A stretch of DNA of 29,292 nucleotides from Bifidobacterium breve (GCA_945881995.1 CAMCVY010000001.1:1-29292), one strand, 5' to 3'. Positions 16,264-28,025 are shown, numbered from the stretch's first letter. The notes: generated by a model not told the origin, from the sequence alone. Made by a program: numbers and translations.

Positions 16264-17084
16264 CAGCTCGGGCCCACCTCCCCTAGGAGCACGCGCTTGA
16301 GGAATTCAGGGGCCACGGTGGTGCAATAGTGCGCGCCCTCGAAGTAGGGGGCTGTTGATGAATTGCTGTTGGCAACCAGCGCACGCGAGCCGATTTCCGC
16401 CACCGCACCATTGGTGTTGATAGCAGCCACTGGGGGAGTCCACGACGGGCCTACACCCACGACGGTGTCGGCGACGGTCACCAAGGTGTTGGCACTGGCG
16501 CCGGGCAGATTGGACGCGGTGGGGTTGTACGGAGCGGCGTTCTTTTGCGTGTTGGTGAGCGATCCCCACACGCTGTCGATGGTGTTTTGGTTGATCGCTT
16601 GGCAGGTGCCGTCGGTGGAAGGCGACGTACTGAGTCCGTCACCGGCGCTACCAAATCCCCATGCTGGTTCAACAATGAAGCGACCATTGCCGAAGGTGGT
16701 TCCGGCGGGCCAGTTGCCCTTGTTCAAGCTCTCACCGGTGCGCATCTTGCAGCGGATCAATTTGGGCTTGGTTAGATCATTGTTTTCGTATTGCACATAC
16801 GCGGTGGTGGAAATTTTCTTCGCTGACGTTACGACCGCAGATTTGGAGAAAACAAAGTCAGATTCGTCCTTGTACACGGTTCCGGTGATGGTGAAGTCAC
16901 CACCGTTTTCCACCAATTTCGATGTATCAATGTTGGCGATGCCGATCTGGCCCTCAGCACAAAATCGGAAAAAGCCCGTTGACGTGATAATCGTCCCAGG
17001 GATAGGAGCCGCACCAGAGAGCGCAGGCACGGCGAGGATCGCCGTGATGCCCAAAAGCACGATCGTGAGTCGGCGGCGGCGCAC
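16263..17084 (-). CDS. Secreted hypothetical protein with four Cys
   Basis: MRRRR plus hydrophobic signal peptide. RBS AGGGGA. Stop overlaps the WxL-like start (TGATG). Confidence 0.75.
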   Translation of the reverse strand: MRRRRLTIVLLGITAILAVPALSGAAPIPGTIITSTGFFRFCAEGQIGIANIDTSKLVENGGDFTITGTVYKDESDFVFSKSAVVTSAKKISTTAYVQYENNDLTKPKLIRCKMRTGESLNKGNWPAGTTFGNGRFIVEPAWGFGSAGDGLSTSPSTDGTCQAINQNTIDSVWGSLTNTQKNAAPYNPTASNLPGASANTLVTVADTVVGVGPSWTPPVAAINTNGAVAEIGSRALVANSNSSTAPYFEGAHYCTTVAPEFLKRVLLGEVGPS

Positions 17085-17226
17085 GTGGTTCCCCTATCAG
17101 GAAATCGATGAACACTTAACCTTTCCAAACGGATACAGGTGCAACAAGGGGTTTGGATTACATTCCGGCAACAGATTGGCCAGCCCAAATCACGCCTGGG
17201 GGCTGTGGGTGCGAGAAGATGACCAG

Positions 17227-18234
17227 ATGAACAGCCTCCACGCCCAGATCCAGCGCGCCGACCAAGCCGGGATTGACGCTGCCGTAGCCGTTCTTCGACA
17301 GGGCGGGCTGGTCGTTCTACCCACAGAGACGGTGTACGGACTGGGCGCTGATGCCACGTCGGAACTTGCGGTGGCACGGATTTTTCAAGTCAAGGGTCGC
17401 CCTGCGGATCACCCGGTGATCGTTCATGTTCTGGGTGTGGACGATCTTGATGTGTGGGCTGTCGATGTTCCGTCGTATGCGCGTGAGTTAGCCCAAAGGT
17501 GGTGGCCTGGTCCCATGACCTTGGTGTTGACCCGTCGCCCAGGGGTGGGTGAAATCGCAGCCGGTGGGGCACCCACGATTGCCCTGCGTAGCCCGTCACA
17601 TCCGGTCGCGCGCGCTGTCATTGAACGATTGGGTTCGGGAGTTGCAGCGCCTTCGGCGAACCGATTTGGTCGCGTGAGCCCGACAACTGCGCACCATGTT
17701 GTTGAGGAATTGGGCGATGTACTGACGGCCTCTGACTTAATCCTTGATGGTGGCGAGTGCACCATTGGCGTGGAATCCACCATCATCGACTGCACCGGAG
17801 CAGGGCCCATTGTTTTGCGTCCCGGTGGAGTGACCAATGCTGATATTGCGCAGGTAGTCGAGCTTTCGAGTCACACCGTCAGTGATCTTGAACGAGATAT
17901 TCGGGCGCCGGGAACCTTGGCCGCTCACTACGCGCCGACGGCGCGAGTGTTGCTGGCTGAAGAAGCAGAAGCCGATGCTGTCATTAACGCGGCCCCAGCT
18001 GGTGAAGTCGGCCTGCTCTCCATGGTGACCTTTGAGCCGTCCACGGACCGTGCAATCCACCGCCTCGTGGCGCCCGGCAATGTTGACGAGTACGCGCAGG
18101 ACCTCTATGCGGCGCTGCGCAGGGCAGACCAACTCGGACTGGTCGCGGTCGTCGCCGTTTTGCCACCGGCCGAGGGAATTGGTGTGGCAGTGCGCGATCG
18201 ATTGCAGCGAGCATCGACCGGATCTGCCCTGTAA
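17227..18234 (+). CDS. sua5: L-threonylcarbamoyladenylate synthase, Sua5 type (YrdC domain plus Sua5 C-terminal domain)
   Basis: PTETVYGLGADA, KGRPADHP, WPGPMTLVL, APSANRFG, STIIDCT and PGTLAAHYAP motifs. Start set at ATG 17227, not the ORF-track 16363. Confidence 0.93.
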   Translation: MNSLHAQIQRADQAGIDAAVAVLRQGGLVVLPTETVYGLGADATSELAVARIFQVKGRPADHPVIVHVLGVDDLDVWAVDVPSYARELAQRWWPGPMTLVLTRRPGVGEIAAGGAPTIALRSPSHPVARAVIERLGSGVAAPSANRFGRVSPTTAHHVVEELGDVLTASDLILDGGECTIGVESTIIDCTGAGPIVLRPGGVTNADIAQVVELSSHTVSDLERDIRAPGTLAAHYAPTARVLLAEEAEADAVINAAPAGEVGLLSMVTFEPSTDRAIHRLVAPGNVDEYAQDLYAALRRADQLGLVAVVAVLPPAEGIGVAVRDRLQRASTGSAL

Positions 18235-19059: not shown

Positions 19060-19302
19060 TGTCCAGCCCTGGCGATCAGGCGGCTGAACAACAAGCAATC
19101 CTTGATGCACCCCCAGCCGTTTGCCGCCTTCAGCGAATGCATTGGTGCGATCGTTGCCTTCACATGGCTCCCGCCCAAGCGTCCGTAACGAAGCAAAACC
19201 GGTGGAAGCAACCCACTGATCGGACCAGCCTGCGGTGCCTGCAGGTGCCTCGCGTATGCTTTCGTGGGTTCCCAACGGACCTGTGCAAACAGGATTTCGT
19301 GA

Positions 19303-19375
19303 GCCCCCATCGTCTAGTGGTCTAGGACGCCGCCCTTTCAAGGCGGTAACACGGGTTCGAACCCCGTTGGGGGTA
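19303..19375 (+). tRNA. tRNA-Glu(UUC)
   Basis: Cloverleaf with CCGCC-CTTTCAA-GGCGG anticodon arm. CCA not encoded. Confidence 0.96.
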
Positions 19376-19441
19376 CGCAAGTACCTGTTCGACCAGCACT
19401 TTGGTGCTGGAGTAGTAAGCCTCACGGATTCGTCCGTGTTT

Positions 19442-19518
19442 GGCCCCGTAGCGCAGTTGGTTAGCGCGCCGCCCTGTCACGGCGGAGGTCGCCGGTTCGA
19501 GCCCGGTCGGGGTCGCCA
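19442..19518 (+). tRNA. tRNA-Asp(GUC)
   Basis: CCGCC-CTGTCAC-GGCGG anticodon arm, GGTTCGAGCC T-arm, CCA end. Confidence 0.97.
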
Positions 19519-19542
19519 GGACACCCATTGGGTGACCTGTTC

Positions 19543-19618
19543 GGTCAGGTAGCTCAGTTGGGAGAGCGACCGCCTGAAAAGCGGTAGGTCGGCGGATCGA
19601 ACCCGCCCCTGACCACCA
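19543..19618 (+). tRNA. tRNA-Phe(GAA)
   Basis: ACCGC-CTGAAAA-GCGGT anticodon arm, acceptor GGTCAGG/CCTGACC, CCA end. T-loop reads ATCGAAC. Confidence 0.95.
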
Positions 19619-19645
19619 GTTGTGCGCAATGTGGAATTAGCCGTT

Positions 19646-19666
19646 CGGTTGATATTGGATCAACCG
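19646..19666. promoter_or_regulatory. Perfect inverted repeat after tRNA-Phe (terminator or operator)
   Basis: CGGTTGAT-ATTGG-ATCAACCG. No U-tract follows. Confidence 0.4.
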
Positions 19667-19748
19667 GTAAGCCCTACACACGACGAATCCCCTGTGTTGA
19701 AGTTGGAGGTAATAGTTATTCGCTTCTAATGCATTGAGGGATCTTGAC

Positions 19749-22700
19749 ATGGGTATGAACCGACGAATCGTTGGAATTGTTGCTGTCACTGCTGTCATGG
19801 CGGCGACGCTCGTGCCGCTGGGGGCGAGTACCGCACAGGCGGCACCGGTTGGTAATGGCTTCACCCTCACCGTCCCCGACCTGCAATTCATCCTTGACCA
19901 AATTGAGATTGCAGAAGCACATAAGGCAGCCGACAAGCCAGCGACGTGCACAACCGTCGAAGGGCTCACGGTCGCAAACTGCGCCGTCCCTGGCACGAAC
20001 CCCTACGTCCGTGGATCCTTAGTCACCACAGACCTCGCTGACCCTCGCCTCGTGGACGGGTTGCGTCAAACCGATGGTCGCAACAACAACTTGGTAAACG
20101 GTTTTTCGCCCTGGAATGGTGTGCGCTACACATCCAGCCCAGGTCAGTCCGCCTGGGGATCAGCAGACTCAGCCTTCCCCCGTGATACGCCCGAAACCTG
20201 GCGCTTGACCGACACCACCAACAATTCCTTCGGCCCCGTTGGTTCGACCTACAACCCTTCGTCGCGACCAAAGAACTTGGTTGACCCACAACCTCGAGTG
20301 ATTAGCAACTTGATCTCTGATCAATCTGCCTACAACCCAGCCGCCGTTGCTGCCGCTGGTGCTGACATCAGTGGCCTGACCACTGACCAGCAAAAGCAGG
20401 ACACCCAGCTTTTGATTGAAAACATTGCTCCCGACGCCGGACAGTCGGCTCCGTATAACGGAATGTTCACTATCTTTGGTCAATTCTTTGACCACGGCTT
20501 GGACTTGGTCGGCAAGACCAGTGCTGAAGCTGTCTTCATTCCGTTGAAGTCAGATGACCCGTTGTATCGTGAAGGTGCACGCAACAACTTCATGGTTTTG
20601 AACCGCACGGTTTTGGACGCGAATAATGCTGGCACCAACACCACGACTCCGTGGGTTGATCAAAACCAGACATACACCTCTGCTCCATCCCACCAAGTGT
20701 TCTTGCGCGGTTATGGCTGTGGTGATGCTTCTTCGACGACGGCAAATTGCGCCCCGGGGTCAGCCCCCGTTGCGACCGGTGATTTCCTTGACGGTGCCAT
20801 CACACACAACTTGGCGAACTGGAGCGAGATCAAAGCGCAAGCTGCCAACAAGTTGGGTATTGCACTGACTGATTATGACGTCACGAATGTTCCGCTTCTT
20901 GCAACCGACGAGTTTGGTCGCTTCCTTCGCGGCCCCAATGGATTCCCACTTGTCGTTTTGAAGAACGGCACGTTGCTGGAAGGAAATCCTGCCTCGCCCA
21001 TCGAGACCGTCAACTTCGCCAATGTGGCTAAGCCCGAGGACCTTATTCAACGCACGGACCATGCGTTCCTTGATGACATCGCTCATGGAGCCGGACCGAA
21101 GTGGGCCTGGAATGGCTCAGCGTGGGCTGCTACCCATAACGCAGCCTTGCTCAACAGGCACTTCGTCACCGGCGATGGTCGAGGTAACGAAAACATCGCG
21201 CTAACCGCGATTCACACGGTCTTCCACAATGAGCACAACCGCCTGGTCGATGACATCAAGTCGGTCGTCACCGCCAATCAGGGTGCCGTTGCTGGTGCAG
21301 GCAAATTCGCGTTTGAGGACTGGCGAGTGGGCAACTCCGCTGGTGCGGAGTTCAATGGTGAGCGTTTGTTCCAAGCAGCGCGCTTCATCAACGAAATGGA
21401 ATACCAGCACTTGGTGTTTGAGGAATTCGTTCGCAAGGTGCAGCCAGAAACCCGTTTATTCGGTAGCTATGACCCATCCTTGAACCCCAACATTGTTGCG
21501 GAATTTGCTAACGCAACGTATCGCTACGGGCACTCGCAGTTGAATGAGACGGTTGACCGAATTGCGGCTGACGGTACGGACACTTCTATCTCCCTCATCG
21601 ATGCATTCCTGGATCCGGATGACTTCAACAATGTCGATGGGCAAGTGCTCACCGGTGACCAAGCGGTCGGACAAATTGCGCGTGGAATGACCAATCAGCG
21701 TGGTAACGAAATAGATGAGTTCGTCACAGGGGCATTGAAAAACAGCTTGCTCGGTTTGCCGCTCGACTTGGGTGCCTTGAACATGTCGCGAGGTCGCGAC
21801 ACCGGCATGCCCTCGCTAAATGGTGCTCGCCGCTCGTATTACGACACGACCGCAGACGCTTCAATGACTCCTTATGGCTCGTGGCTCGAATTTGGGCAAG
21901 CATTGCGCCACCCCGCTTCGTTGATCAACTTTGTGGCTGCCTACGGGACCCACCCATCTGTTACTGCGGCCACAACGGTTGCGGACAAGCGTGCAGCCGC
22001 AACCTTGTTGGTCAAGGGTGGTCTTGGAGAGCCTGCTGATAGTGCCGAGTTCATGACCAGCCAAGGTGCGTGGATTCCGGTCAACGACCTAGCGACCACG
22101 GGCTTAGAAGACATTGACTTGTGGATCGGTGGACTGGCTGAGCAGCGCACGCCGGCTGGCGGAATGCTCGGAGCCACTAATGACTTCATCTTCCGCACAC
22201 AGATGGAAAAGCTCCAAGAGAGTGACCGTTTTTACTACCTCGCTCGCATTCCTGGCATCGGGCTGCTCAACCAAATTGAAGGCAACTCACTTGCTGAAAT
22301 CATTCAGCGCAACTCCGATGCTGAAGATTTGCCATTCAACATCTTCGATGTACCTTCAAAAACCTTTAATATGTCGAAGTCCTCGCTGACTTACCCCGAT
22401 ATCAGTGTGAAGCCCGACGGCACTTGGGCGTACTCCGGCTCAGATCACGTGGTGTTTAACGGAACTGCCGGCAACGACGGCGTCTCATCGGGTTCGGGTA
22501 ACGACACGATTCGCGGCAACGACGGCGATGACACGATCAACGGTGGATACGGGGATGACAGCATCATCGGTGGATTGGGTGATGACACGTTGACCGACCC
22601 ATCGGGCATTGACGTGGTGATGTCAGGCGATGGCAGCGACTTCATTAACACTGGAGGACCTGGGCTGGATGTTTACCTTGCAGGTGCAGGATCGGACTTC

Positions 22701-25700
22701 ACCATGGGTGGTGGCTATGGCACCGAACAGCTGGGTGGACCGGGCAACGACTTTATGTACGGCGGCACCTCCGCTGACGCGCTCAGCGGCGATGAAGACT
22801 CTGACTGGCTTGAAGGTGGAGTGGGTGACGACTCTTTGTCAGGTGATCTTGCGGCGATCTTTGGTGTGGACATTGCTCCACCAGGTGACGACGTGATGAT
22901 TGGTGACAGCGGAAGCAACCGGATCAATGGTGAGGGTGGCGTTGACATCATGGTTGGAGGAACCCAAGGAACTAACCGAGTTCTCGGCGGCCTTGGCTTT
23001 GACTTCTCGACGTATTACAACCCACGATCCATGGCGGCCCACGATGCTGCTTTGGACAATTTTGCACCACCACTAGGCGCCCCAGACTTGGGTATGCAAG
23101 ATCGGTATAAAGACGTCGAGGCGTTGTCCGGGGGTGACTTGGATGACATTTTGTCCGGTGATAACCGCACCACGATGGATGTGTTGGACACGGTGGGTGA
23201 CACCTTGAACGCGTCCGACATTGCCAAGATCTCTGGTTTGAACACTTTGCTTGGTGGAGACGCTGCCTTCAACACGGGTAACATCCTCATCGGTGGTGGC
23301 GGTTCGGACACTTTGCAGGGACGTCAAGGCGATGAAGTCATTGATGGCGACGCCTACTTACAGGTGCAAATTTCAGCTCCTGCTTCGCCAGCTATTACCG
23401 GAACGACGTCGGTCGACCCATCAGATGCAACGCGAGTACTCGTCAACAGCATGACGCAACTCACCACTGCTGTGCGGAAGAAGAACTTCGCCATCTCGCA
23501 ATTGCGCATCGTTCGCTCGATCAAGTGGGCCGCACACAGCACCGAGCTCGATGTCGCTGTGTACAACAGCCCACGTGCGAACTTCACTCTTGCTGCGGGA
23601 CCCAACGGCACTCTGCGCGTTACTGACAACACGGTTGGAAACGGTAATGAGGGCGTGGACACCCTGCGCAACATGGAGCGCATTCAGTTCACGGATGAGA
23701 CGGTCGAGCTCGTCGCTCCCAGTGCACCACAAGACGTGACGGCGACCTTTGATCGGGTCAACCAACGTGTTCGCGTCTCGTGGACTCCGCCAGTGGCCAA
23801 CTCTGTGTTGCCTGTGACGGGCTACACGGCTCGGGTTCGCGAGGCTGGAACCGATGTGTTGGTGGCTAGTTGTAGCACCGAAGGAGCGGGCCGCAACTGC
23901 GACATCTCGGCGAATGGCAGCGTAGCCTACGACGTTGATGTGGTGGCGATTAATGTTGTAGGAACTGGTGTTGCTGGACCGAATCCACCGATCACCCTGC
24001 CGGCTTTCGTGGTCAGAGTACCTAGTCAGCCGCTGAATGTTACGGGTGTCGTTGGCAACGGGTCGGTGGCGTTGAGCTGGACTGCTCCAACCGATGACGG
24101 CGGAGCTGATGTTGACCGCTATGTCGTGACATCAACACCAGGTGGAACGGTGTGCACCGTCAACGTTGTGGCGCCGGCTGTTGCACCCGCGACAACGTGC
24201 AATGCAACCGGTCTCACCAATTTCAGGTCCTACAGATTCACCGTGACTGCGCACAATGTTGTTGGTGATTCTTTGCCCTCCGCTCAATCCTCAATCTTGG
24301 TCCCGCTCCCCCAAAGGCCGGCTGCACCAGGAGTCATCAGCGGAACCGTTGGAGATAAATCAGTGCGGCTGAACTGGACTGCCCCTAGTAATAATGGTGG
24401 TTCACGCGTCTTCCAGTACGAAGTCTTCCAGAGCCCAGGTGGCGCAAGGGTTTGTAACATCGTATCGGTCTTCGGTACGCCTTCAACGACTTGCACTGTC
24501 TCTGGTTTGACGAATGGTTCGAACTACACCTTTACGGTCAAGGCGTCGAACATTGCTGGTACCTCGGCTGCCTCGAGTCCATCAGTGACGTTCACGCCGC
24601 GGGCAGCAACCACTCAACCGCTGAATGTGGTGGGTACCCCTGCTGATCAGTCCATCACCGTTTCGTGGGATCGCCCCGCCAACGATGGTGGGTCCGCGAT
24701 CACCAGTTATACGGTCGACCAAGCCGGCGCTGGTCAGGTGTGCACTGTGGTTCCTGCAGCGCCCGCTGCCGAACCCGTAACCAGTTGCGTTGTCTCCGGA
24801 CTGACCAATGGCACAAATTACGCCTTCACGGTTCGTGCGGTGAACGGCGCTGGGACGTCACCAAGTTCTGGCCTGTCCACCCCGGTAGCTCCTCGGACAG
24901 TCGTGCTTGCCCCAACAGTTGTTACTACTACAGCGCGCAACGCAGGAGCAGCGATTTCTTGGAACGCCCCAGCATCCGATGGTGGATCAGCGGTGACCGG
25001 TTACAAGGTGTTCGCTAGTCCTGGCGATCTCGAGGTCTGCACCGTGAACATCACGCCACCATTCCTCGAACCTGCTACTAACTGCATTGCTAGTGGACTG
25101 GTTAACGGCACGCCCTATACCTTCACTGTCAAGGCAGTCAATGCTGCAGGCGACTCGTCGCCATCTGATCCATCAGCAGCCATCACTCCTGACGGTGTAG
25201 CGCCGACCGCGGCGATGGTCGATCCTTCCGATGAGTTCCAACTGGGTCAAACCATTGGGTTGACCTGGAGCGCATCGGATGCTGACACCGGTGTACGAAA
25301 CACCGATGTGCGGTACTTCCGAGTTCCCGTCGGTGGCGGAACACCTGATTCATGGGAGTTCCTGGTTCAGGGAACTACTGATCGCAGTGCAACGTTGACC
25401 GAGGCGGCGTGGGGTTATAGCTACTGCTTCCAAGCCCGCGGTCACGATGAGGCTGGAAATGATGGCGACTGGTCGGCATCTAAGTGCACGAATGTGGTGG
25501 CCGACTCACGCTCGTTTGCCCGATCTAAGTTTGCCCTGAAGACCGCCTCTGGTTATATCGGCAACACCTACGAGACCACCACCACCAAGGGCGCCTACCT
25601 GCTCTCCAGGAGCTCCCAGACGGTGCGTCAGGTGGGCGTGGTTGCTATGACGTGCTCCAGTTGTGGTGTGGTCAAGGTCTACGTCGGTGCCACCTATGTG

Positions 25701-25850
25701 GGGCAGATATCTCTCAAGAAGTCCGGTGCATCAAGCCGTTCCCTGCTCCTGCTGCCTCGTTTCACCAATACCAAGGTGGGCAAGATCAAGATCGTGGCTT
25801 CGAATGGCAAGACGGTCCGTCTCGACGGAATCGCAATCTCGGGCTCCTAG
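19749..25850 (+). CDS. Secreted animal-type heme peroxidase (peroxidase-cyclooxygenase superfamily, MopA/PepA-like) with RTX repeats and FN3 domains
   Basis: Signal peptide ending AQA. DLQFILDQIEIAEAH, FGQFFDHGLD (distal His), TPWVDQNQTY, GDGRGNEN, EFANATYRYGHS (proximal His), RGRDTG, DLWIGGLAE and DRFYY motifs. RBS GAGGG before ATG 19749. Confidence 0.93.
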   Translation: MGMNRRIVGIVAVTAVMAATLVPLGASTAQAAPVGNGFTLTVPDLQFILDQIEIAEAHKAADKPATCTTVEGLTVANCAVPGTNPYVRGSLVTTDLADPRLVDGLRQTDGRNNNLVNGFSPWNGVRYTSSPGQSAWGSADSAFPRDTPETWRLTDTTNNSFGPVGSTYNPSSRPKNLVDPQPRVISNLISDQSAYNPAAVAAAGADISGLTTDQQKQDTQLLIENIAPDAGQSAPYNGMFTIFGQFFDHGLDLVGKTSAEAVFIPLKSDDPLYREGARNNFMVLNRTVLDANNAGTNTTTPWVDQNQTYTSAPSHQVFLRGYGCGDASSTTANCAPGSAPVATGDFLDGAITHNLANWSEIKAQAANKLGIALTDYDVTNVPLLATDEFGRFLRGPNGFPLVVLKNGTLLEGNPASPIETVNFANVAKPEDLIQRTDHAFLDDIAHGAGPKWAWNGSAWAATHNAALLNRHFVTGDGRGNENIALTAIHTVFHNEHNRLVDDIKSVVTANQGAVAGAGKFAFEDWRVGNSAGAEFNGERLFQAARFINEMEYQHLVFEEFVRKVQPETRLFGSYDPSLNPNIVAEFANATYRYGHSQLNETVDRIAADGTDTSISLIDAFLDPDDFNNVDGQVLTGDQAVGQIARGMTNQRGNEIDEFVTGALKNSLLGLPLDLGALNMSRGRDTGMPSLNGARRSYYDTTADASMTPYGSWLEFGQALRHPASLINFVAAYGTHPSVTAATTVADKRAAATLLVKGGLGEPADSAEFMTSQGAWIPVNDLATTGLEDIDLWIGGLAEQRTPAGGMLGATNDFIFRTQMEKLQESDRFYYLARIPGIGLLNQIEGNSLAEIIQRNSDAEDLPFNIFDVPSKTFNMSKSSLTYPDISVKPDGTWAYSGSDHVVFNGTAGNDGVSSGSGNDTIRGNDGDDTINGGYGDDSIIGGLGDDTLTDPSGIDVVMSGDGSDFINTGGPGLDVYLAGAGSDFTMGGGYGTEQLGGPGNDFMYGGTSADALSGDEDSDWLEGGVGDDSLSGDLAAIFGVDIAPPGDDVMIGDSGSNRINGEGGVDIMVGGTQGTNRVLGGLGFDFSTYYNPRSMAAHDAALDNFAPPLGAPDLGMQDRYKDVEALSGGDLDDILSGDNRTTMDVLDTVGDTLNASDIAKISGLNTLLGGDAAFNTGNILIGGGGSDTLQGRQGDEVIDGDAYLQVQISAPASPAITGTTSVDPSDATRVLVNSMTQLTTAVRKKNFAISQLRIVRSIKWAAHSTELDVAVYNSPRANFTLAAGPNGTLRVTDNTVGNGNEGVDTLRNMERIQFTDETVELVAPSAPQDVTATFDRVNQRVRVSWTPPVANSVLPVTGYTARVREAGTDVLVASCSTEGAGRNCDISANGSVAYDVDVVAINVVGTGVAGPNPPITLPAFVVRVPSQPLNVTGVVGNGSVALSWTAPTDDGGADVDRYVVTSTPGGTVCTVNVVAPAVAPATTCNATGLTNFRSYRFTVTAHNVVGDSLPSAQSSILVPLPQRPAAPGVISGTVGDKSVRLNWTAPSNNGGSRVFQYEVFQSPGGARVCNIVSVFGTPSTTCTVSGLTNGSNYTFTVKASNIAGTSAASSPSVTFTPRAATTQPLNVVGTPADQSITVSWDRPANDGGSAITSYTVDQAGAGQVCTVVPAAPAAEPVTSCVVSGLTNGTNYAFTVRAVNGAGTSPSSGLSTPVAPRTVVLAPTVVTTTARNAGAAISWNAPASDGGSAVTGYKVFASPGDLEVCTVNITPPFLEPATNCIASGLVNGTPYTFTVKAVNAAGDSSPSDPSAAITPDGVAPTAAMVDPSDEFQLGQTIGLTWSASDADTGVRNTDVRYFRVPVGGGTPDSWEFLVQGTTDRSATLTEAAWGYSYCFQARGHDEAGNDGDWSASKCTNVVADSRSFARSKFALKTASGYIGNTYETTTTKGAYLLSRSSQTVRQVGVVAMTCSSCGVVKVYVGATYVGQISLKKSGASSRSLLLLPRFTNTKVGKIKIVASNGKTVRLDGIAISGS
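22461..23352 (+). repeat. RTX / hemolysin-type Ca2+-binding nonapeptide repeats within the peroxidase
   Basis: GSGNDTIRG, NDGDDTING, GYGDDSIIG, GLGDDTLTD, GPGNDFMYG, GVGDDSLSG, GGGSDTLQG and others (GGxGxDxUx). Confidence 0.9.
23715..25190 (+). repeat. Five tandem fibronectin type III domains within the peroxidase
   Basis: Repeated P..V......SW.(A/P)P..(D/N)GG....Y.V...C....C...GL.NG..Y.F.V.A.N..G.S pattern. Each unit has a Cys pair. The first unit is more divergent. Confidence 0.88.
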
Positions 25851-25853
25851 GAC

Positions 25854-25880
25854 CCTCAGGCCGTTGCTGGCCTGAGGTTT
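25854..25880 (+). terminator. Intrinsic terminator of the peroxidase gene
   Basis: CCTCAGGCC-GTTGCT-GGCCTGAGG followed by TTT, 3 nt after the stop. Confidence 0.7.
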
Positions 25881-25907
25881 GCCCGAAGACTTACCGAGGG
25901 GGGGTCC

Positions 25908-25936
25908 CTGCCTAGTCAGGGACTACCCCCTAGGGT
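25908..25936 (+). promoter_or_regulatory. Probable hup promoter
   Basis: CTGCCT, 17 nt, TAGGGT. It lies within the inverted repeat at 25897-25931. Confidence 0.4.
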
Positions 25937-25984
25937 TCTAGGTAGGCACGCAGCCGTGCCACACCCGTACTCAAGGAGAAGTCT

Positions 25985-26272
25985 GTGAACCGCAGTGAAT
26001 TGGTGGCCGCTGTTGCCGCAAAGACCGGTCAGAGCGCCAAGGACGTTGACGCTGTCCTCAAGGGTTTTGCCGATGTAGTCGCATCCGAACTGGGCTCGAG
26101 CAAGAGCGCCAAGGTGAGTCTGCCTGGCTTCTTGACCTTCGAGACCGGCTTCCGCAACGCCCGTACCGCCCGTAACCCTCAGACCGGTGCTGAGATCCAG
26201 GTTGCCGCCACGCACACCGCCAAGGTGTCCGCTGGCTCAAACCTCAAGGCTGCGGCACAAAAGAACAACTAA
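25985..26272 (+). CDS. hup: HU family DNA-binding protein (short, HupA-like)
   Basis: MNRSELV, LPGFLTF and RTARNPQTG motifs. RBS AAGGAG. No Lys-rich tail. Confidence 0.95.
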   Translation: MNRSELVAAVAAKTGQSAKDVDAVLKGFADVVASELGSSKSAKVSLPGFLTFETGFRNARTARNPQTGAEIQVAATHTAKVSAGSNLKAAAQKNN

Positions 26273-26315
26273 GTTCCACCCAGCACTTCTACGCGCCGTC
26301 GAGGGCGCTCATCGC

Positions 26316-26537
26316 TTAGGCGGTGGGGTCGTCCTTGGCGGCGCGTTGCTGTGGAATCCCCTCGAGCAATTCCCGCACCTCGGATTCGCGATAGCGGCGA
26401 TGCCCACCCAGCGTGCGAATGGCCGAAATCTTTCCCGCCTTGGCCCAGCGGGTGACCGTCTTGGGGTCGACTCGGAACATCGCTGCCACTTCGGCAGGCG
26501 TGAGCAGGTTTTCTGCCTCGGACGAGTCGTGGACCAT
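26316..26537 (-). CDS. bldC: BldC family MerR-like transcriptional regulator
   Basis: LLTPAEVAAMFRVDPKTVTRWAKAGKISAIRTLGGHRRYRESEVRELL. Confidence 0.95.
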   Translation of the reverse strand: MVHDSSEAENLLTPAEVAAMFRVDPKTVTRWAKAGKISAIRTLGGHRRYRESEVRELLEGIPQQRAAKDDPTA

Positions 26538-26740
26538 TGTGTAAATCCCCCTGTAATTGATTGCTGATGCCCATCCTGCCTTACGGGCCGCGAAACTTAG
26601 GTGCTTTTGGGCGAAAGTTCCGATCCCGACCGAATTGTCTCGCCTGCCCTGAATGCGTAAAGGCGCCCTTTGAGGGTAGCCTTAGGAATGTTCCCGTAGC
26701 GGCCCATGAGGGCCACCTGAGCACATGAGGGGGTCGAGCC

Positions 26741-26929
26741 ATGGGGCGCGGCCGAGCCAAAGCCAAGCAGACCAAGGTCGCTCGCGAGTTGAAGTATGCC
26801 TCCAGCGGGACCGATTTGGACGCCCTGCAGGCGGAACTTGCTCAGTCTTCATCGCAATCGAGTGCGCCGTCTAGCGATAGCGAATCTGATGACGACACTA
26901 CCTACGAGTACGACAAGGACAACGACTAA
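26741..26929 (+). CDS. DUF3073 family protein (Rv0810c-like)
   Basis: MGRGRAKAKQTKVARELKY plus acidic tail. Conserved position next to purM. Confidence 0.95.
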   Translation: MGRGRAKAKQTKVARELKYASSGTDLDALQAELAQSSSQSSAPSSDSESDDDTTYEYDKDND

Positions 26930-26930
26930 A

Positions 26931-28025
26931 TCAGTTCGTGTAGTCGCCTTGTAGTTGAGCTGAACCGCCGCCGCCGCCCTTTGCGGGAGCATCCCCGAGT
27001 TCGCCGTCTTGGCGGTCGCGAATTTCACCGGTTACCCAGGCGCTAATTCCACGCTGGGCCAGGAGCGACAAGGCAGAATCCACACTGTCAGGCGCGGCGA
27101 TCGCCATCATGCCGATGCCCATGTTGAGCGTCTTTTCCAACTCGACGCGGTCAACATTTCCGAGGTCGCCGATGGTGGTGAATACCGCAGGTGGCGTCCA
27201 CGTACCGCGACGAAGATCGGCGTGTAGGTGGGTGGGCAAAACGCGAGCCACGTTGGCAGCGATTCCGCCACCGGTGATGTGGGTAAAGGCGCGCAGTTCA
27301 ATCGAGGCGTCGCGGGCTAGAGCCAAGCAGTCCAGTGCGTAGATTGCGGTGGGCTCGAGGAGTTCGGCACCTAGTGTTCGACCAAACTCTGGAACTTCGC
27401 GGTCAAGTTTCCAACCAGCGACAGTGAAAAAGACGTGGCGGGCCAGCGAGTAGCCATTCGAGTGCAGGCCGCTTGACGCCATAGAGATCACCACGTCGCC
27501 AGCACGAACGCGGTCTAGTCCCAAGAGCTGGTCGGCGTCGACAACCCCGGTGCCCGCTCCGGCCAGGTCGTATTCATCAGGCTCAAGCAAGCCAGGATGC
27601 TCGGCGGTTTCGCCGCCAATGAGTGCGCAACCAGCCTTTTCGCAACCGGCAGCGATTCCACTGACAATGGCCGCAATGCGTTCGGGCACGACCTTGCCAG
27701 TGGCGATGTAGTCGGTCATGAATAACGGTTCAGCGCCACACACCACGAGGTCATCAACGACCATCGCCACAAGGTCGAGCCCAATCGTGTGGTGAATATC
27801 CATGGCCTGGGCGATGGCCACTTTGGTGCCGACGCCGTCCGTCGAAGTCGCTAGTAGTGGCTTGGCATAGTTCTTTACCGCTGAGATATCAAACAAACCA
27901 GCAAAGCCACCGAAGTCGCCGACCACTTCGGGGCGCCCGGCGGCCTTGATCGAAGCCTTCATTAAGGCAACGGCGCGCTCGCCAGCTTCTACGTCAACGC
28001 CGGCTGCGGCGTACGAGGAGGTCAT
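26931..28025 (-). CDS. purM: Phosphoribosylformylglycinamidine cyclo-ligase
   Basis: YAAAGVD, TDGVGTK, GGETAEHPG, SGLHSNGYSL, HITGGG and NMGIG motifs. Confidence 0.98.
   Translation of the reverse strand: MTSSYAAAGVDVEAGERAVALMKASIKAAGRPEVVGDFGGFAGLFDISAVKNYAKPLLATSTDGVGTKVAIAQAMDIHHTIGLDLVAMVVDDLVVCGAEPLFMTDYIATGKVVPERIAAIVSGIAAGCEKAGCALIGGETAEHPGLLEPDEYDLAGAGTGVVDADQLLGLDRVRAGDVVISMASSGLHSNGYSLARHVFFTVAGWKLDREVPEFGRTLGAELLEPTAIYALDCLALARDASIELRAFTHITGGGIAANVARVLPTHLHADLRRGTWTPPAVFTTIGDLGNVDRVELEKTLNMGIGMMAIAAPDSVDSALSLLAQRGISAWVTGEIRDRQDGELGDAPAKGGGGGSAQLQGDYTN

What the first reader, a model, noticed from the sequence alone, without database searches (positions are those of the whole stretch)
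19749..25850. MopA/PepA-like giant heme peroxidase in an actinobacterium: candidate Mn(II) oxidase
Established: bacterial animal-type heme peroxidases with Ca-binding repeats include the Mn(II)-oxidising MopA of Aurantimonas, Erythrobacter and Pseudomonas putida, and P. putida PepA, all proteobacterial. Seen here: one complete peroxidase domain with distal (DHGLD, ~20490) and proximal (YGHS, ~21531) His, in a Gram-positive-type host, between a tRNA cluster and core genes. Inference: extracellular Mn oxidation, halide oxidation or surface cross-linking.
Basis: partly seen in the sequence, partly recalled or inferred. Interest (0 to 1): 0.72.

Follow-up and report, generated by a model that had tools for sequence, protein, structure and literature searches.

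The report
Secreted giant haem peroxidase, actinobacterial form
This is a real, intact gene for a 2033-residue exported, calcium-binding haem peroxidase of a known bacterial family (long peroxicins, which include MopA/PepA), in the form that many actinobacteria already carry. Nothing here shows that it oxidises manganese.

Summary
Window 19749-25850 (+) is one open gene of 2033 codons. It encodes an N-terminal signal peptide, one complete animal-type haem peroxidase domain, RTX calcium repeats, five FN3 domains and a 209-residue C-terminal module with no Pfam family. The distal His codon is at 20493 and the proximal His codon at 21531.

The protein is a long peroxicin, 42-47% identical to the Pseudomonas two-domain MopA/PepA type, and it keeps every catalytic residue.

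- The premise that such enzymes are all proteobacterial is wrong. Arthrobacter members were listed in 2012, and 47 actinobacterial MopA homologues were counted in a 2022 preprint. Here I found it in 14 of 301 sampled genomes of the same class.
- On the tree the protein sits in an actinobacterial single-domain clade. An AU test rejects grouping it with the P. putida-type clade.
- It has no PERCAL motifs and carries an N-terminal signal peptide instead of type I secretion.
- No sequence feature is known that predicts Mn(II) oxidation.

Local points of interest: it is the largest intact ORF of a 1.44-Mb freshwater MAG. It is present in four of six genus genomes and cleanly absent from two, next to tRNA-Phe. 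Matching contigs occur in lake metatranscriptome libraries. Its tail module also ends a secreted pentapeptide-repeat protein.

This scan has already noted Sec-exported actinobacterial peroxicins on other DNA. Verdict: new member of a known kind.

The parts
19624..19748 (+). Left part of the variable segment: 5' leader with an RBS-like GAGGGA at 19737-19742. No sigma-70-like promoter was scored here.
   Evidence: Sequence. One search found no promoter-like site upstream. Homology to genus-mate G005, which lacks the gene, stops at about 19623.
19749..25850 (+). Coding sequence of the 2033-aa peroxidase. The mature protein is about 2002 aa, 209 kDa, pI 4.5.
   Evidence: It is the largest intact ORF in the 1.44-Mb assembly.
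19749..19841 (+). N-terminal signal peptide (MGMNRR..., hydrophobic core, AQA|AP). It contains a twin arginine, so Sec versus Tat is not decided.
   Evidence: Sequence. Actinobacterial homologues have the same kind of N-terminus and proteobacterial ones none. No Tat-signal HMM hit. TatC is present in the genome.
19857..22382 (+). Conserved N-terminal extension plus animal-type haem peroxidase domain (residues 42-883 of P0001).
   Evidence: The family HMM covers positions 2-789 of 790. Pfam PF03098. AF2 model pLDDT 88, pTM 0.91. Foldseek: 8s6c E 9e-29, TM 0.82 by target, then DdPoxA, MPO and LPO.
20481..20498 (+). Distal site Q250-F-F-D253-H254-G255. Asp253 is the candidate haem ester link and His254 the distal His. 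Gly255 replaces the calcium-ligand Asp of mammalian enzymes.
   Evidence: Aligned to GQFLDHDLD of 8s6c. Q, D, H and G are invariant in 118 of 118 domains.
20706..21143 (+). Beta-rich insertion inside the peroxidase domain (about residues 325-470). It is absent from short peroxidases.
   Evidence: The query segment between the distal and Arg/Glu motifs is about 110 residues longer than in 8s6c. Beta strands appear in the AF2 model at model residues 286-427. Conserved in alignment A1.
21180..21194 (+). R483-G-N-E486-N487: distal Arg and the second candidate haem ester Glu. There is no Met at the MPO sulfonium position.
   Evidence: Aligned to RSNE of 8s6c. R, E and N are invariant in 118 of 118 domains.
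21531..21533 (+). Proximal haem ligand His600 (in YRYGHS). Its H-bond partner Asn683 is encoded at 21780-21782.
   Evidence: alignment. H and N are invariant in 118 of 118 domains. The motif scheme is from PMC4420034.
22446..23354 (+). RTX (haemolysin-type) calcium-binding nonapeptide block. GGxGxD occurs at residues 937, 946, 974, 1001, 1028, 1085 and 1187.
   Evidence: Pfam PF00353, E 3.1e-19 with 5 stretches, plus one more at 1182-1207. Regex.
23355..23720 (+). Linker or cap region between the RTX block and the first FN3. No family assigned.
   Evidence: No Pfam hit above threshold.
23721..25211 (+). Five FN3 domains (residues 1330-1826), each with one close Cys pair. Copies 2-5 are 41-46% identical to each other.
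   Evidence: Pfam fn3, E 1.8e-6 to 3.8e-15 per unit. Cys positions. Pairwise identities.
25221..25847 (+). C-terminal 209-residue module: an FN3/Ig-like domain plus a beta-sandwich with a CSSCG motif. It has no Pfam family. I infer it is a surface-attachment or targeting module.
   Evidence: No Pfam hit. AF2 pLDDT 68.6, two beta-sandwiches. Only weak FN3+CBM-like fold hits. The same module ends the secreted pentapeptide-repeat protein G000:C62. It also ends other ORFs in the genus and class.
25851..25875 (+). Right end of the variable segment. The segment 19624-25875 (6.25 kb) is replaced by about 115 bp in G005 and about 66 bp in G004.

Best explanation
The gene encodes a functional, exported, calcium-stabilised haem peroxidase of the long-peroxicin family (Family 5 of the peroxidase-cyclooxygenase superfamily), in its actinobacterial layout. 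Shown: the protein has an N-terminal signal peptide. It has one peroxidase domain with the full catalytic set: distal Gln/Asp/His, Arg and Glu, and proximal His with its Asn partner. It has an RTX block, five FN3 domains and a C-terminal beta-sandwich module. All 18 cysteines lie in nine close pairs, as expected for an extracytoplasmic protein. Inferred: after export, calcium folds the RTX beta-roll and haem is bound, possibly ester-linked through Asp253 and Glu486 as in lactoperoxidase. The FN3 chain then holds the catalytic head away from the cell, and the tail module holds the protein on the envelope. Arthrobacter homologues have SLH or LGFP wall-binding modules at the same position. The enzyme would use H2O2 to oxidise small donors or halides outside the cell. 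The most likely role is managing extracellular reactive oxygen, as shown for PehA of P. putida. The natural substrate is unknown. Mn(II) oxidation is possible as a side or indirect reaction but is not indicated by any feature tested.
For: Domains. Fold: AF2 pLDDT 88 with Foldseek 8s6c E 9e-29, TM 0.82 by target. Catalytic residues Q250, D253, H254, R483, E486, H600 and N683 are invariant in 118 of 118 related domains, following the motif scheme of PMC4420034. Homology: 42-47% identity to Pseudomonas two-domain proteins and 50-59% to single-domain 1500-2100-aa proteins, with 999 clusters at E<1e-30. Signal peptides occur in actinobacterial members only. FN3 occurs in actinobacterial members only (and the Pfam column). 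SLH (E 7e-10) and six LGFP repeats (E 3e-82) form the tails of Arthrobacter homologues. The tail module is shared with another secreted protein. The gene is conserved at 80-88% DNA identity in three genus-mates with open frames. Contigs at 95% identity or more occur in four lake metatranscriptome libraries from three studies. The haem-reconstituted PepA domain has peroxidase activity (PMC3396595), and PehA aids survival under oxidative stress (PMC9518985).
Against: No biochemical data exist for any actinobacterial member, and Zamocky et al. call the role of Family 5 'completely unknown' (PMC4420034). How a protein exported unfolded obtains haem outside a planktonic cell is unexplained. Ferrochelatase and uroporphyrinogen decarboxylase were not found in this 93.7%-complete assembly, although ferrochelatase is present in three genus-mates. 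The calcium-ligand Asp next to the distal His is Gly in the whole family. The attachment role of the tail rests on analogy and a mediocre model (pLDDT 68.6). The genome already has KatG, and the gene is dispensable in two genus-mates. Contigs from RNA libraries cannot exclude DNA carry-over.
Confidence: 0.8

Rival explanations
1. Physiological Mn(II) oxidase. The enzyme would oxidise Mn(II) to Mn(III) at the cell surface, directly or through superoxide, as reported for MopA of Aurantimonas, Erythrobacter SD-21, Roseobacter AzwK-3b and P. putida GB-1.
For: It belongs to the same family and has the same catalytic residues as the P. putida-type proteins. It has RTX calcium repeats, and MopA-hp needs haem and calcium (PMC6247904). 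No multicopper oxidase (PF07732) was found in this genome, so this would be the only known candidate. One genus-mate MAG is named after a Lake Pavin water-column sample. From memory, that lake has a Mn/Fe-rich chemocline; I did not check this here.
Against: It sits in a separate actinobacterial clade, and an AU test rejects joining it to the P. putida-type clade, p 1.7e-72 (the group was named after a first tree was seen). It has no PERCAL motif, against 7-14 in Pseudomonas proteins. No residue or motif specific for Mn oxidation is known. P. putida MopA activity is seen only in a triple mutant (PMC13689576). In Arthrobacter the Mn oxidase studied is the boxA gene product, not the haem peroxidase (bioRxiv 10.1101/2025.05.09.653071). 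The verified alphaproteobacterial MopA sequences could not be fetched by name, so they were not in the tree.
Confidence: 0.12
2. Surface weapon or shield. The peroxidase would make hypohalous acid or hypothiocyanite at the envelope against grazers, phages or competitors. That role would fit its strain-variable presence.
For: The Asp and Glu for lactoperoxidase-like ester links are conserved. The gene shows presence/absence polymorphism at one locus within a genus, next to a tRNA gene. It is a giant surface-exposed protein in a streamlined genome.
Against: Halide levels in fresh water are low. No halide-binding residues were tested. No immunity or partner gene lies nearby: the neighbours are tRNAs and core genes.
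Confidence: 0.1
3. Mainly a structural adhesin or matrix cross-linker. The peroxidase head would cross-link envelope or particle polymers, analogous to peroxidasin, and the FN3 and tail domains would bind surfaces.
For: The architecture of a catalytic head, an FN3 chain and a beta-sandwich tail resembles adhesins. The tail has weak CBM-like and amidase-tail fold and feature hits.
Against: Catalytic residues are under strict conservation in all 118 domains, so catalysis matters. No substrate polymer is known. The fold hits of the tail are weak (TM below 0.5).
Confidence: 0.08

Closest known systems
MopA of Pseudomonas putida GB-1 (PputGB1_3353) = PepA/PehA of KT2440 (PP_2561). Represented here by P0091 [Pseudomonas putida], 3543 aa, and by P0123.
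   Same: The same peroxidase domain type, including the N-terminal extension and the internal beta-rich insertion. Identity is 43% over 98% of residues 40-900. The catalytic residues are identical. RTX repeats lie downstream, and the protein is extracellular.
   Different: The Pseudomonas protein has two peroxidase domains against one here. It has 7-14 PERCAL motifs against none. It has no signal peptide and a type-I-like C-terminus, against an N-terminal signal peptide here. It has no FN3 domains. It falls in a separate clade.
Actinobacterial single-domain long peroxicins, e.g. Arthrobacter chlorophenolicus B8HDW8 (1712 aa) and Arthrobacter sp. FB24 A0JUB7 (1625 aa), listed in PMC3396595. Here: L024, L046, L028, L036, Cryobacterium L032/L086, Actinoplanes L014 and Nocardioides L084.
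   Same: The same layout: signal peptide, one peroxidase domain, a short RTX block, FN3 domains and a C-terminal module. They fall in the same half of the tree.
   Different: Identity is 44-55%. Many carry 1-2 PERCAL motifs where this one has none. Their tails are SLH, LGFP, Big_5 or plain FN3, whereas this genus uses an unclassified 209-residue module. None has been studied biochemically, as far as my literature searches show.
MopA of Erythrobacter sp. SD-21 (A5PER4, 2138 aa, one domain) and the haem peroxidases of Aurantimonas manganoxydans and Roseobacter sp. AzwK-3b.
   Same: According to the papers, they share a single or double animal-haem-peroxidase domain plus a haemolysin-type calcium domain, and they need haem and calcium (PMC6247904).
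   Different: They are proteobacterial and contain PERCAL (1-3 motifs, PMC3396595). They have shown Mn(II) oxidation. I could not fetch their sequences by name, so identity and tree position relative to them were not measured.
Cyanobacterium TDX16 peroxidase (PDB 8s6c), Dictyostelium DdPoxA (6erc) and mammalian lactoperoxidase and myeloperoxidase.
   Same: The same core fold (TM 0.7-0.82 by target) and the same distal and proximal motifs.
   Different: Identity is only 16-22%. They lack the roughly 200-residue N-terminal extension, the roughly 110-residue internal insertion, and the RTX, FN3 and tail domains. The calcium-ligand Asp after the distal His is Gly here.

Membership tests
Peroxidase-cyclooxygenase superfamily (animal haem peroxidase, PF03098) | Profile match above the curated cut-off | tested here: met
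   204.8 bits against a cut-off of 25, E 2.8e-60.
Peroxidase-cyclooxygenase superfamily (animal haem peroxidase, PF03098) | Mainly helical peroxidase fold | tested here: met
   AF2 pLDDT 88. Foldseek 8s6c E 9e-29, TM 0.82 by target; also MPO, LPO and DUOX.
Peroxidase-cyclooxygenase superfamily (animal haem peroxidase, PF03098) | Distal Q-x-x-D-H, X-R-X-X-E-X, and a proximal His H-bonded to Asn (PMC4420034) | tested here: met
   Q250, D253, H254, R483, E486, H600 and N683 are present and invariant in 118 relatives.
Peroxidase-cyclooxygenase superfamily (animal haem peroxidase, PF03098) | Haem binding and peroxidase activity | not testable with these tools
   Needs purified protein.
Long peroxicins (Family 5, Zamocky et al. 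2015) | Very long ORF (1600 aa or more) joining peroxidase domain(s) to haemolysin-type calcium repeats | tested here: met
   2033 aa. PF03098 plus PF00353.
Long peroxicins (Family 5, Zamocky et al. 2015) | PERCAL calcium motif G-x-D-G-x-x-[GN]-[TN]-x-D-D inside the peroxidase domain | tested here: not met
   No match, even to the looser G-x-D-G-x(5)-D-D. The motif is also absent from the nearest clade and from several accepted members, so it is frequent rather than strictly defining.
Long peroxicins (Family 5, Zamocky et al. 2015) | Close sequence relationship to accepted members | tested here: met
   42-47% identity over 96-100% of residues 40-900 to Pseudomonas 'peroxidase family proteins'.
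MopA-type Mn(II) oxidases | Demonstrated Mn(II) to Mn(III) oxidation dependent on haem and calcium | not testable with these tools
   Biochemical. No predictive motif is known (PMC6247904, PMC13689576).
MopA-type Mn(II) oxidases | Placement in the clade of a verified MopA | tested here: not met
   It is separate from the P. putida-type two-domain clade (FastTree support 100; AU p 1.7e-72). Placement relative to the Erythrobacter, Aurantimonas and Roseobacter enzymes was not tested.
MopA-type Mn(II) oxidases | No signal peptide; export as an RTX protein by type I secretion | tested here: not met
   An N-terminal signal peptide is present and the C-terminus is not type-I-like. The host is a monoderm actinobacterium.
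RTX proteins | Tandem GGxGxD nonapeptides | tested here: met
   Seven GGxGxD matches and six Pfam stretches.

The most novel reading that the evidence does not exclude
The enzyme could be the main extracellular redox catalyst of a streamlined freshwater planktonic actinobacterium. It would be a wall-tethered peroxidase/oxidase that makes or consumes superoxide and H2O2 and thereby oxidises Mn(II) in lake water columns. Its 209-residue tail would define an undescribed actinobacterial surface-attachment module shared by several giant secreted proteins.
Probability: 0.1. Interest if true: 0.6.

Novelty: new member of a known kind. Interest (0 to 1): 0.3.

Why it matters
If the enzyme is active, abundant small-genome lake actinobacteria would carry a large surface peroxidase that could affect H2O2, superoxide and possibly Mn cycling in fresh water. 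The cell spends its largest gene on it, about 0.4% of a 1.44-Mb genome, yet some strains do without it. For the enzyme family, the actinobacterial layout (signal peptide, FN3 stalk, interchangeable wall-binding tails) has not been studied biochemically and raises the question of how haem is loaded outside a monoderm cell. As a candidate Mn oxidase it adds nothing beyond homology that was already catalogued.

Tried and rejected
- **PERCAL motif search:** none found.
- **Sortase signal or membrane anchor:** LPVTG at residue 1364 is internal to FN3-1 and no hydrophobic tail follows it, so I rejected it.
- **Tat signal:** the twin arginine is present, but no Tat HMM hit came from Pfam or NCBIfam. 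The question stays open.
- **Promoter and terminator scan of 19200-27000:** no convincing promoter upstream of the gene, and fewer hits than in shuffles.
- **Attachment-site repeats at the edges of the variable segment:** none seen by eye.
- **Horizontal transfer by composition:** GC of the gene (0.55-0.58) equals that of the genome (0.575), so there is no signal.
- **Fold of the tail module:** the model is mediocre (pLDDT 68.6), and Foldseek gives only generic FN3+CBM-like matches with TM below 0.5. ESM Atlas leads point to an amidase fragment and CE2_N. I treat all of these only as leads.
- **Verified MopA sequences:** those of Erythrobacter, Aurantimonas and Roseobacter could not be retrieved by name with these tools, so they are missing from the tree.
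- **Model coordinates:** these are not available to scripts, so pocket geometry was not measured.
- **Lake RNA runs:** they are contigs only, so they give no strand, level or transcript ends. Parts of the gene without cover in those runs are not evidence.
- **Haem synthesis genes:** ferrochelatase and UROD were not found in G000. I read this as a probable assembly gap, not absence.


Full report
**Observation**

The window holds one long open frame on the plus strand, from 19734 to 25850. The likely start is ATG 19749. It lies seven bases after GAGGGA and matches the start of the 84%-identical orthologue P0003. The product has 2033 residues.

Pfam finds An_peroxidase (E 2.8e-60), RTX nonapeptides (E 3e-19 on the cut-out block) and five FN3 domains. 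D253-H254-G-L-D begins at nt 20490. The His codon of Y-G-H600-S is at 21531.

Upstream lie a glyoxalase-like gene and tRNA-Glu, tRNA-Asp and tRNA-Phe. Downstream lie HU, a 72-residue MerR/HTH_17 protein, DUF3073, purM and purF.

**Anatomy**

- **Residues 1-31 (from M6 of P0001):** a signal peptide ending AQA|AP. It contains a twin arginine. No Tat-signal profile matches and TatC exists in the genome, so Sec versus Tat stays open.
- **Residues 42-883:** these match a family profile end to end. This covers a conserved extension of about 200 residues, the peroxidase core and a beta-rich internal insertion that short peroxidases lack.
- **Fold:** an AlphaFold model built on a 34-sequence alignment has pLDDT 88 and pTM 0.91. 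Its best solved look-alikes are the Cyanobacterium TDX16 peroxidase 8s6c (E 9e-29, TM 0.82 by target), Dictyostelium DdPoxA, myeloperoxidase and lactoperoxidase.
- **Catalytic residues:** the set defined for the superfamily (PMC4420034) is complete. It comprises Q250, D253, H254, R483, E486, H600 and N683, and all are invariant in 118 related domains. The Asp that binds calcium next to the distal His in mammalian enzymes is Gly in the whole family.
- **Later domains:** an RTX block follows (seven GGxGxD). Then come a linker, five FN3 domains that are 26-46% identical to each other, and a 209-residue tail with no Pfam family.
- **Cysteines and anchors:** all 18 cysteines form nine close pairs, which fits an extracytoplasmic protein. 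There is no sortase signal or membrane anchor.

**Relatives**

The family is very large, with 6128 clusters at E<1e-3 and 999 at E<1e-30 among 50%-identity representatives. Only three clusters share the full layout at 63-98% identity, all from metagenomes. Next come single-domain proteins of 1500-2100 residues at 50-59% identity. After those come the 3400-3500-residue two-domain Pseudomonas and Metapseudomonas proteins at 42-47%.

A scan of one genome per species returned more than 589 loci. Named actinobacterial carriers include Arthrobacter, Pseudarthrobacter, Cryobacterium, Nocardioides, Actinoplanes, Kineosporia, Acidimicrobiales and Thermoleophilia. In an even sample of the window's class, 14 of 301 genomes (11 of 150 genera) have it.

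The premise that such enzymes are all proteobacterial is therefore wrong, and the literature already said so. PMC3396595 lists two Arthrobacter proteins, and bioRxiv 10.1101/2022.11.10.515945 counts 47 actinobacterial MopA homologues.

**Architecture by lineage**

Actinobacterial members carry N-terminal signal peptides, 6-16 RTX motifs, FN3 domains and variable tails. Proteobacterial members have no signal peptide, no FN3, many RTX motifs and type-I-like C-termini (Pfam column).

Pfam confirms FN3 in five actinobacterial tails. It also finds SLH (E 7e-10) in Arthrobacter oryzae and six LGFP repeats (E 3e-82) in Arthrobacter sp. Leaf69, both wall-binding modules. By position, the window's tail is therefore most likely an attachment module (inference).

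The same tail ends a secreted pentapeptide-repeat protein of about 950 residues elsewhere in this genome. It also ends that protein's orthologues in all five genus-mates searched, and other ORFs in four or more other families of the class. Its structure model is mediocre (pLDDT 68.6). It shows two beta-sandwiches with only generic FN3+CBM-like matches.

**Phylogeny**

In a FastTree of 118 domains the window groups with genus-mate G001 and P0003 (support 100), then with P0117 (99). This group sits inside a 13-row actinobacterial and metagenomic clade (100).

Both domains of the P. putida protein P0091, and of P0123, lie in a separate 48-row proteobacterial clade (100). An IQ-TREE run on 52 rows gives the same picture. 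An AU test rejects holding the window clade together with the P. putida-type proteins (p 1.7e-72). One caveat applies: the group was defined after the first tree was seen.

MopA of GB-1 and PepA/PehA of KT2440 are 95% identical orthologues (PMC13689576), so they are one reference, not two. The verified MopA proteins of Erythrobacter, Aurantimonas and Roseobacter could not be fetched by name and are missing from the tree.

**Function**

Nothing in the sequence can show Mn(II) oxidation, because no specific determinant is known.

- MopA-hp of Erythrobacter needs haem, NAD+ and calcium, and does not use H2O2 (PMC6247904).
- P. putida MopA oxidises Mn only in an mnxG mcoA fleQ triple mutant (PMC13689576).
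- PehA acts as a haem-dependent peroxidase that helps cells under oxidative stress (PMC9518985).
- In Arthrobacter the Mn oxidase gene studied is boxA, not the haem peroxidase (bioRxiv 10.1101/2025.05.09.653071).
- Zamocky et al. call the role of Family 5 completely unknown (PMC4420034).

The best-supported statement is therefore a functional, exported, surface-held haem peroxidase with an unknown natural substrate. Mn oxidation remains a minority possibility.

**Genome context**

The assembly has 1.44 Mb in 169 contigs, is 93.7% complete and has GC 0.575. The gene is its largest intact ORF. KatG is present. No catalase, multicopper oxidase, ferrochelatase or UROD was found. Ferrochelatase is present in three genus-mates, so an assembly gap is likely.

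The gene is at the same locus in G001, G002 and G003, but is cleanly absent in G004 (100% complete) and G005. In those two genomes tRNA-Phe is followed after 66-115 bp by the HU upstream region. G005's flanks are closer to the window (93%) than G001's (88%), so gain or loss was recent.

Near-identical DNA occurs in lake and freshwater metagenomes of at least seven studies. Short contigs at 95% identity or more occur in four metatranscriptome libraries from three studies. This is a hint of expression, not proof.

**Verdict**

This is a real and well-built gene and a new member of a known kind. Earlier notes of this scan on other genomes reached the same reading for Sec-exported actinobacterial peroxicins.

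Noticed in passing
G000:C67:6631-8070 (L104:1632-3071), continued on G000:C152:3068-3343: There is a second, short animal-haem-peroxidase gene of about 615-626 aa with no signal peptide. It has FGQFLNHD, a RASENIG-type Arg/Glu motif and RFGHS. It matches Pfam better than the giant does (227 bits). Weak matches of 27-31% identity in ORFs of 615-850 aa suggest it is present in genus-mates G001-G004 and in G007.
   Followed up: partly
G000:C62:2451-5480 (L103; P0271): This is a secreted pentapeptide-repeat protein of about 950-1000 aa (Pfam Pentapeptide, E 1e-69). It ends in the same 209-residue tail module as the peroxidase (48% identity). Orthologues occur in all five genus-mates searched.
   Followed up: partly
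window 24888-25186: One contig of RNA run X16 joins 24888 to 25186, skipping 297 nt, which is exactly one FN3 unit. It could be a strain with four FN3 domains or an assembly collapse between repeats.
   Followed up: no
window 19624-25875: The gene is the whole content of a 6.25-kb presence/absence segment directly after tRNA-Phe. It is replaced by 66-115 bp of unrelated sequence in G004 and G005. No flanking direct repeats or integrase were seen.
   Followed up: partly
window 25889-25935: A G-rich inverted repeat lies between the peroxidase stop and the HU gene. It is kept in G005, which lacks the peroxidase, so it belongs to the HU upstream region rather than to the inserted gene.
   Followed up: no
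window 26316-26537 (-) and 26741-26929 (+): A 72-aa MerR/HTH_17 protein and a DUF3073 protein sit between HU and purM. They look like part of the core neighbourhood.
   Followed up: no
window 16363-18234: The listed 623-aa ORF is over-extended. Only its last 315 or so residues are Sua5/TsaC (Pfam positions 310-618), so the true start is far downstream.
   Followed up: no
G199:C1:478925-481630: Another small actinobacterial genome of the same class but a different family (1.4 Mb, one contig, 100% complete) carries a 1789-aa homologue at 55% identity. Giant peroxicins therefore recur in streamlined genomes.
   Followed up: no
G000 whole assembly: Ferrochelatase (PF00762) and uroporphyrinogen decarboxylase (PF01208) were not found, although KatG and two haem peroxidases are encoded. 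Ferrochelatase is present in G002, G004 and G005, so an assembly gap is the likely cause.
   Followed up: partly
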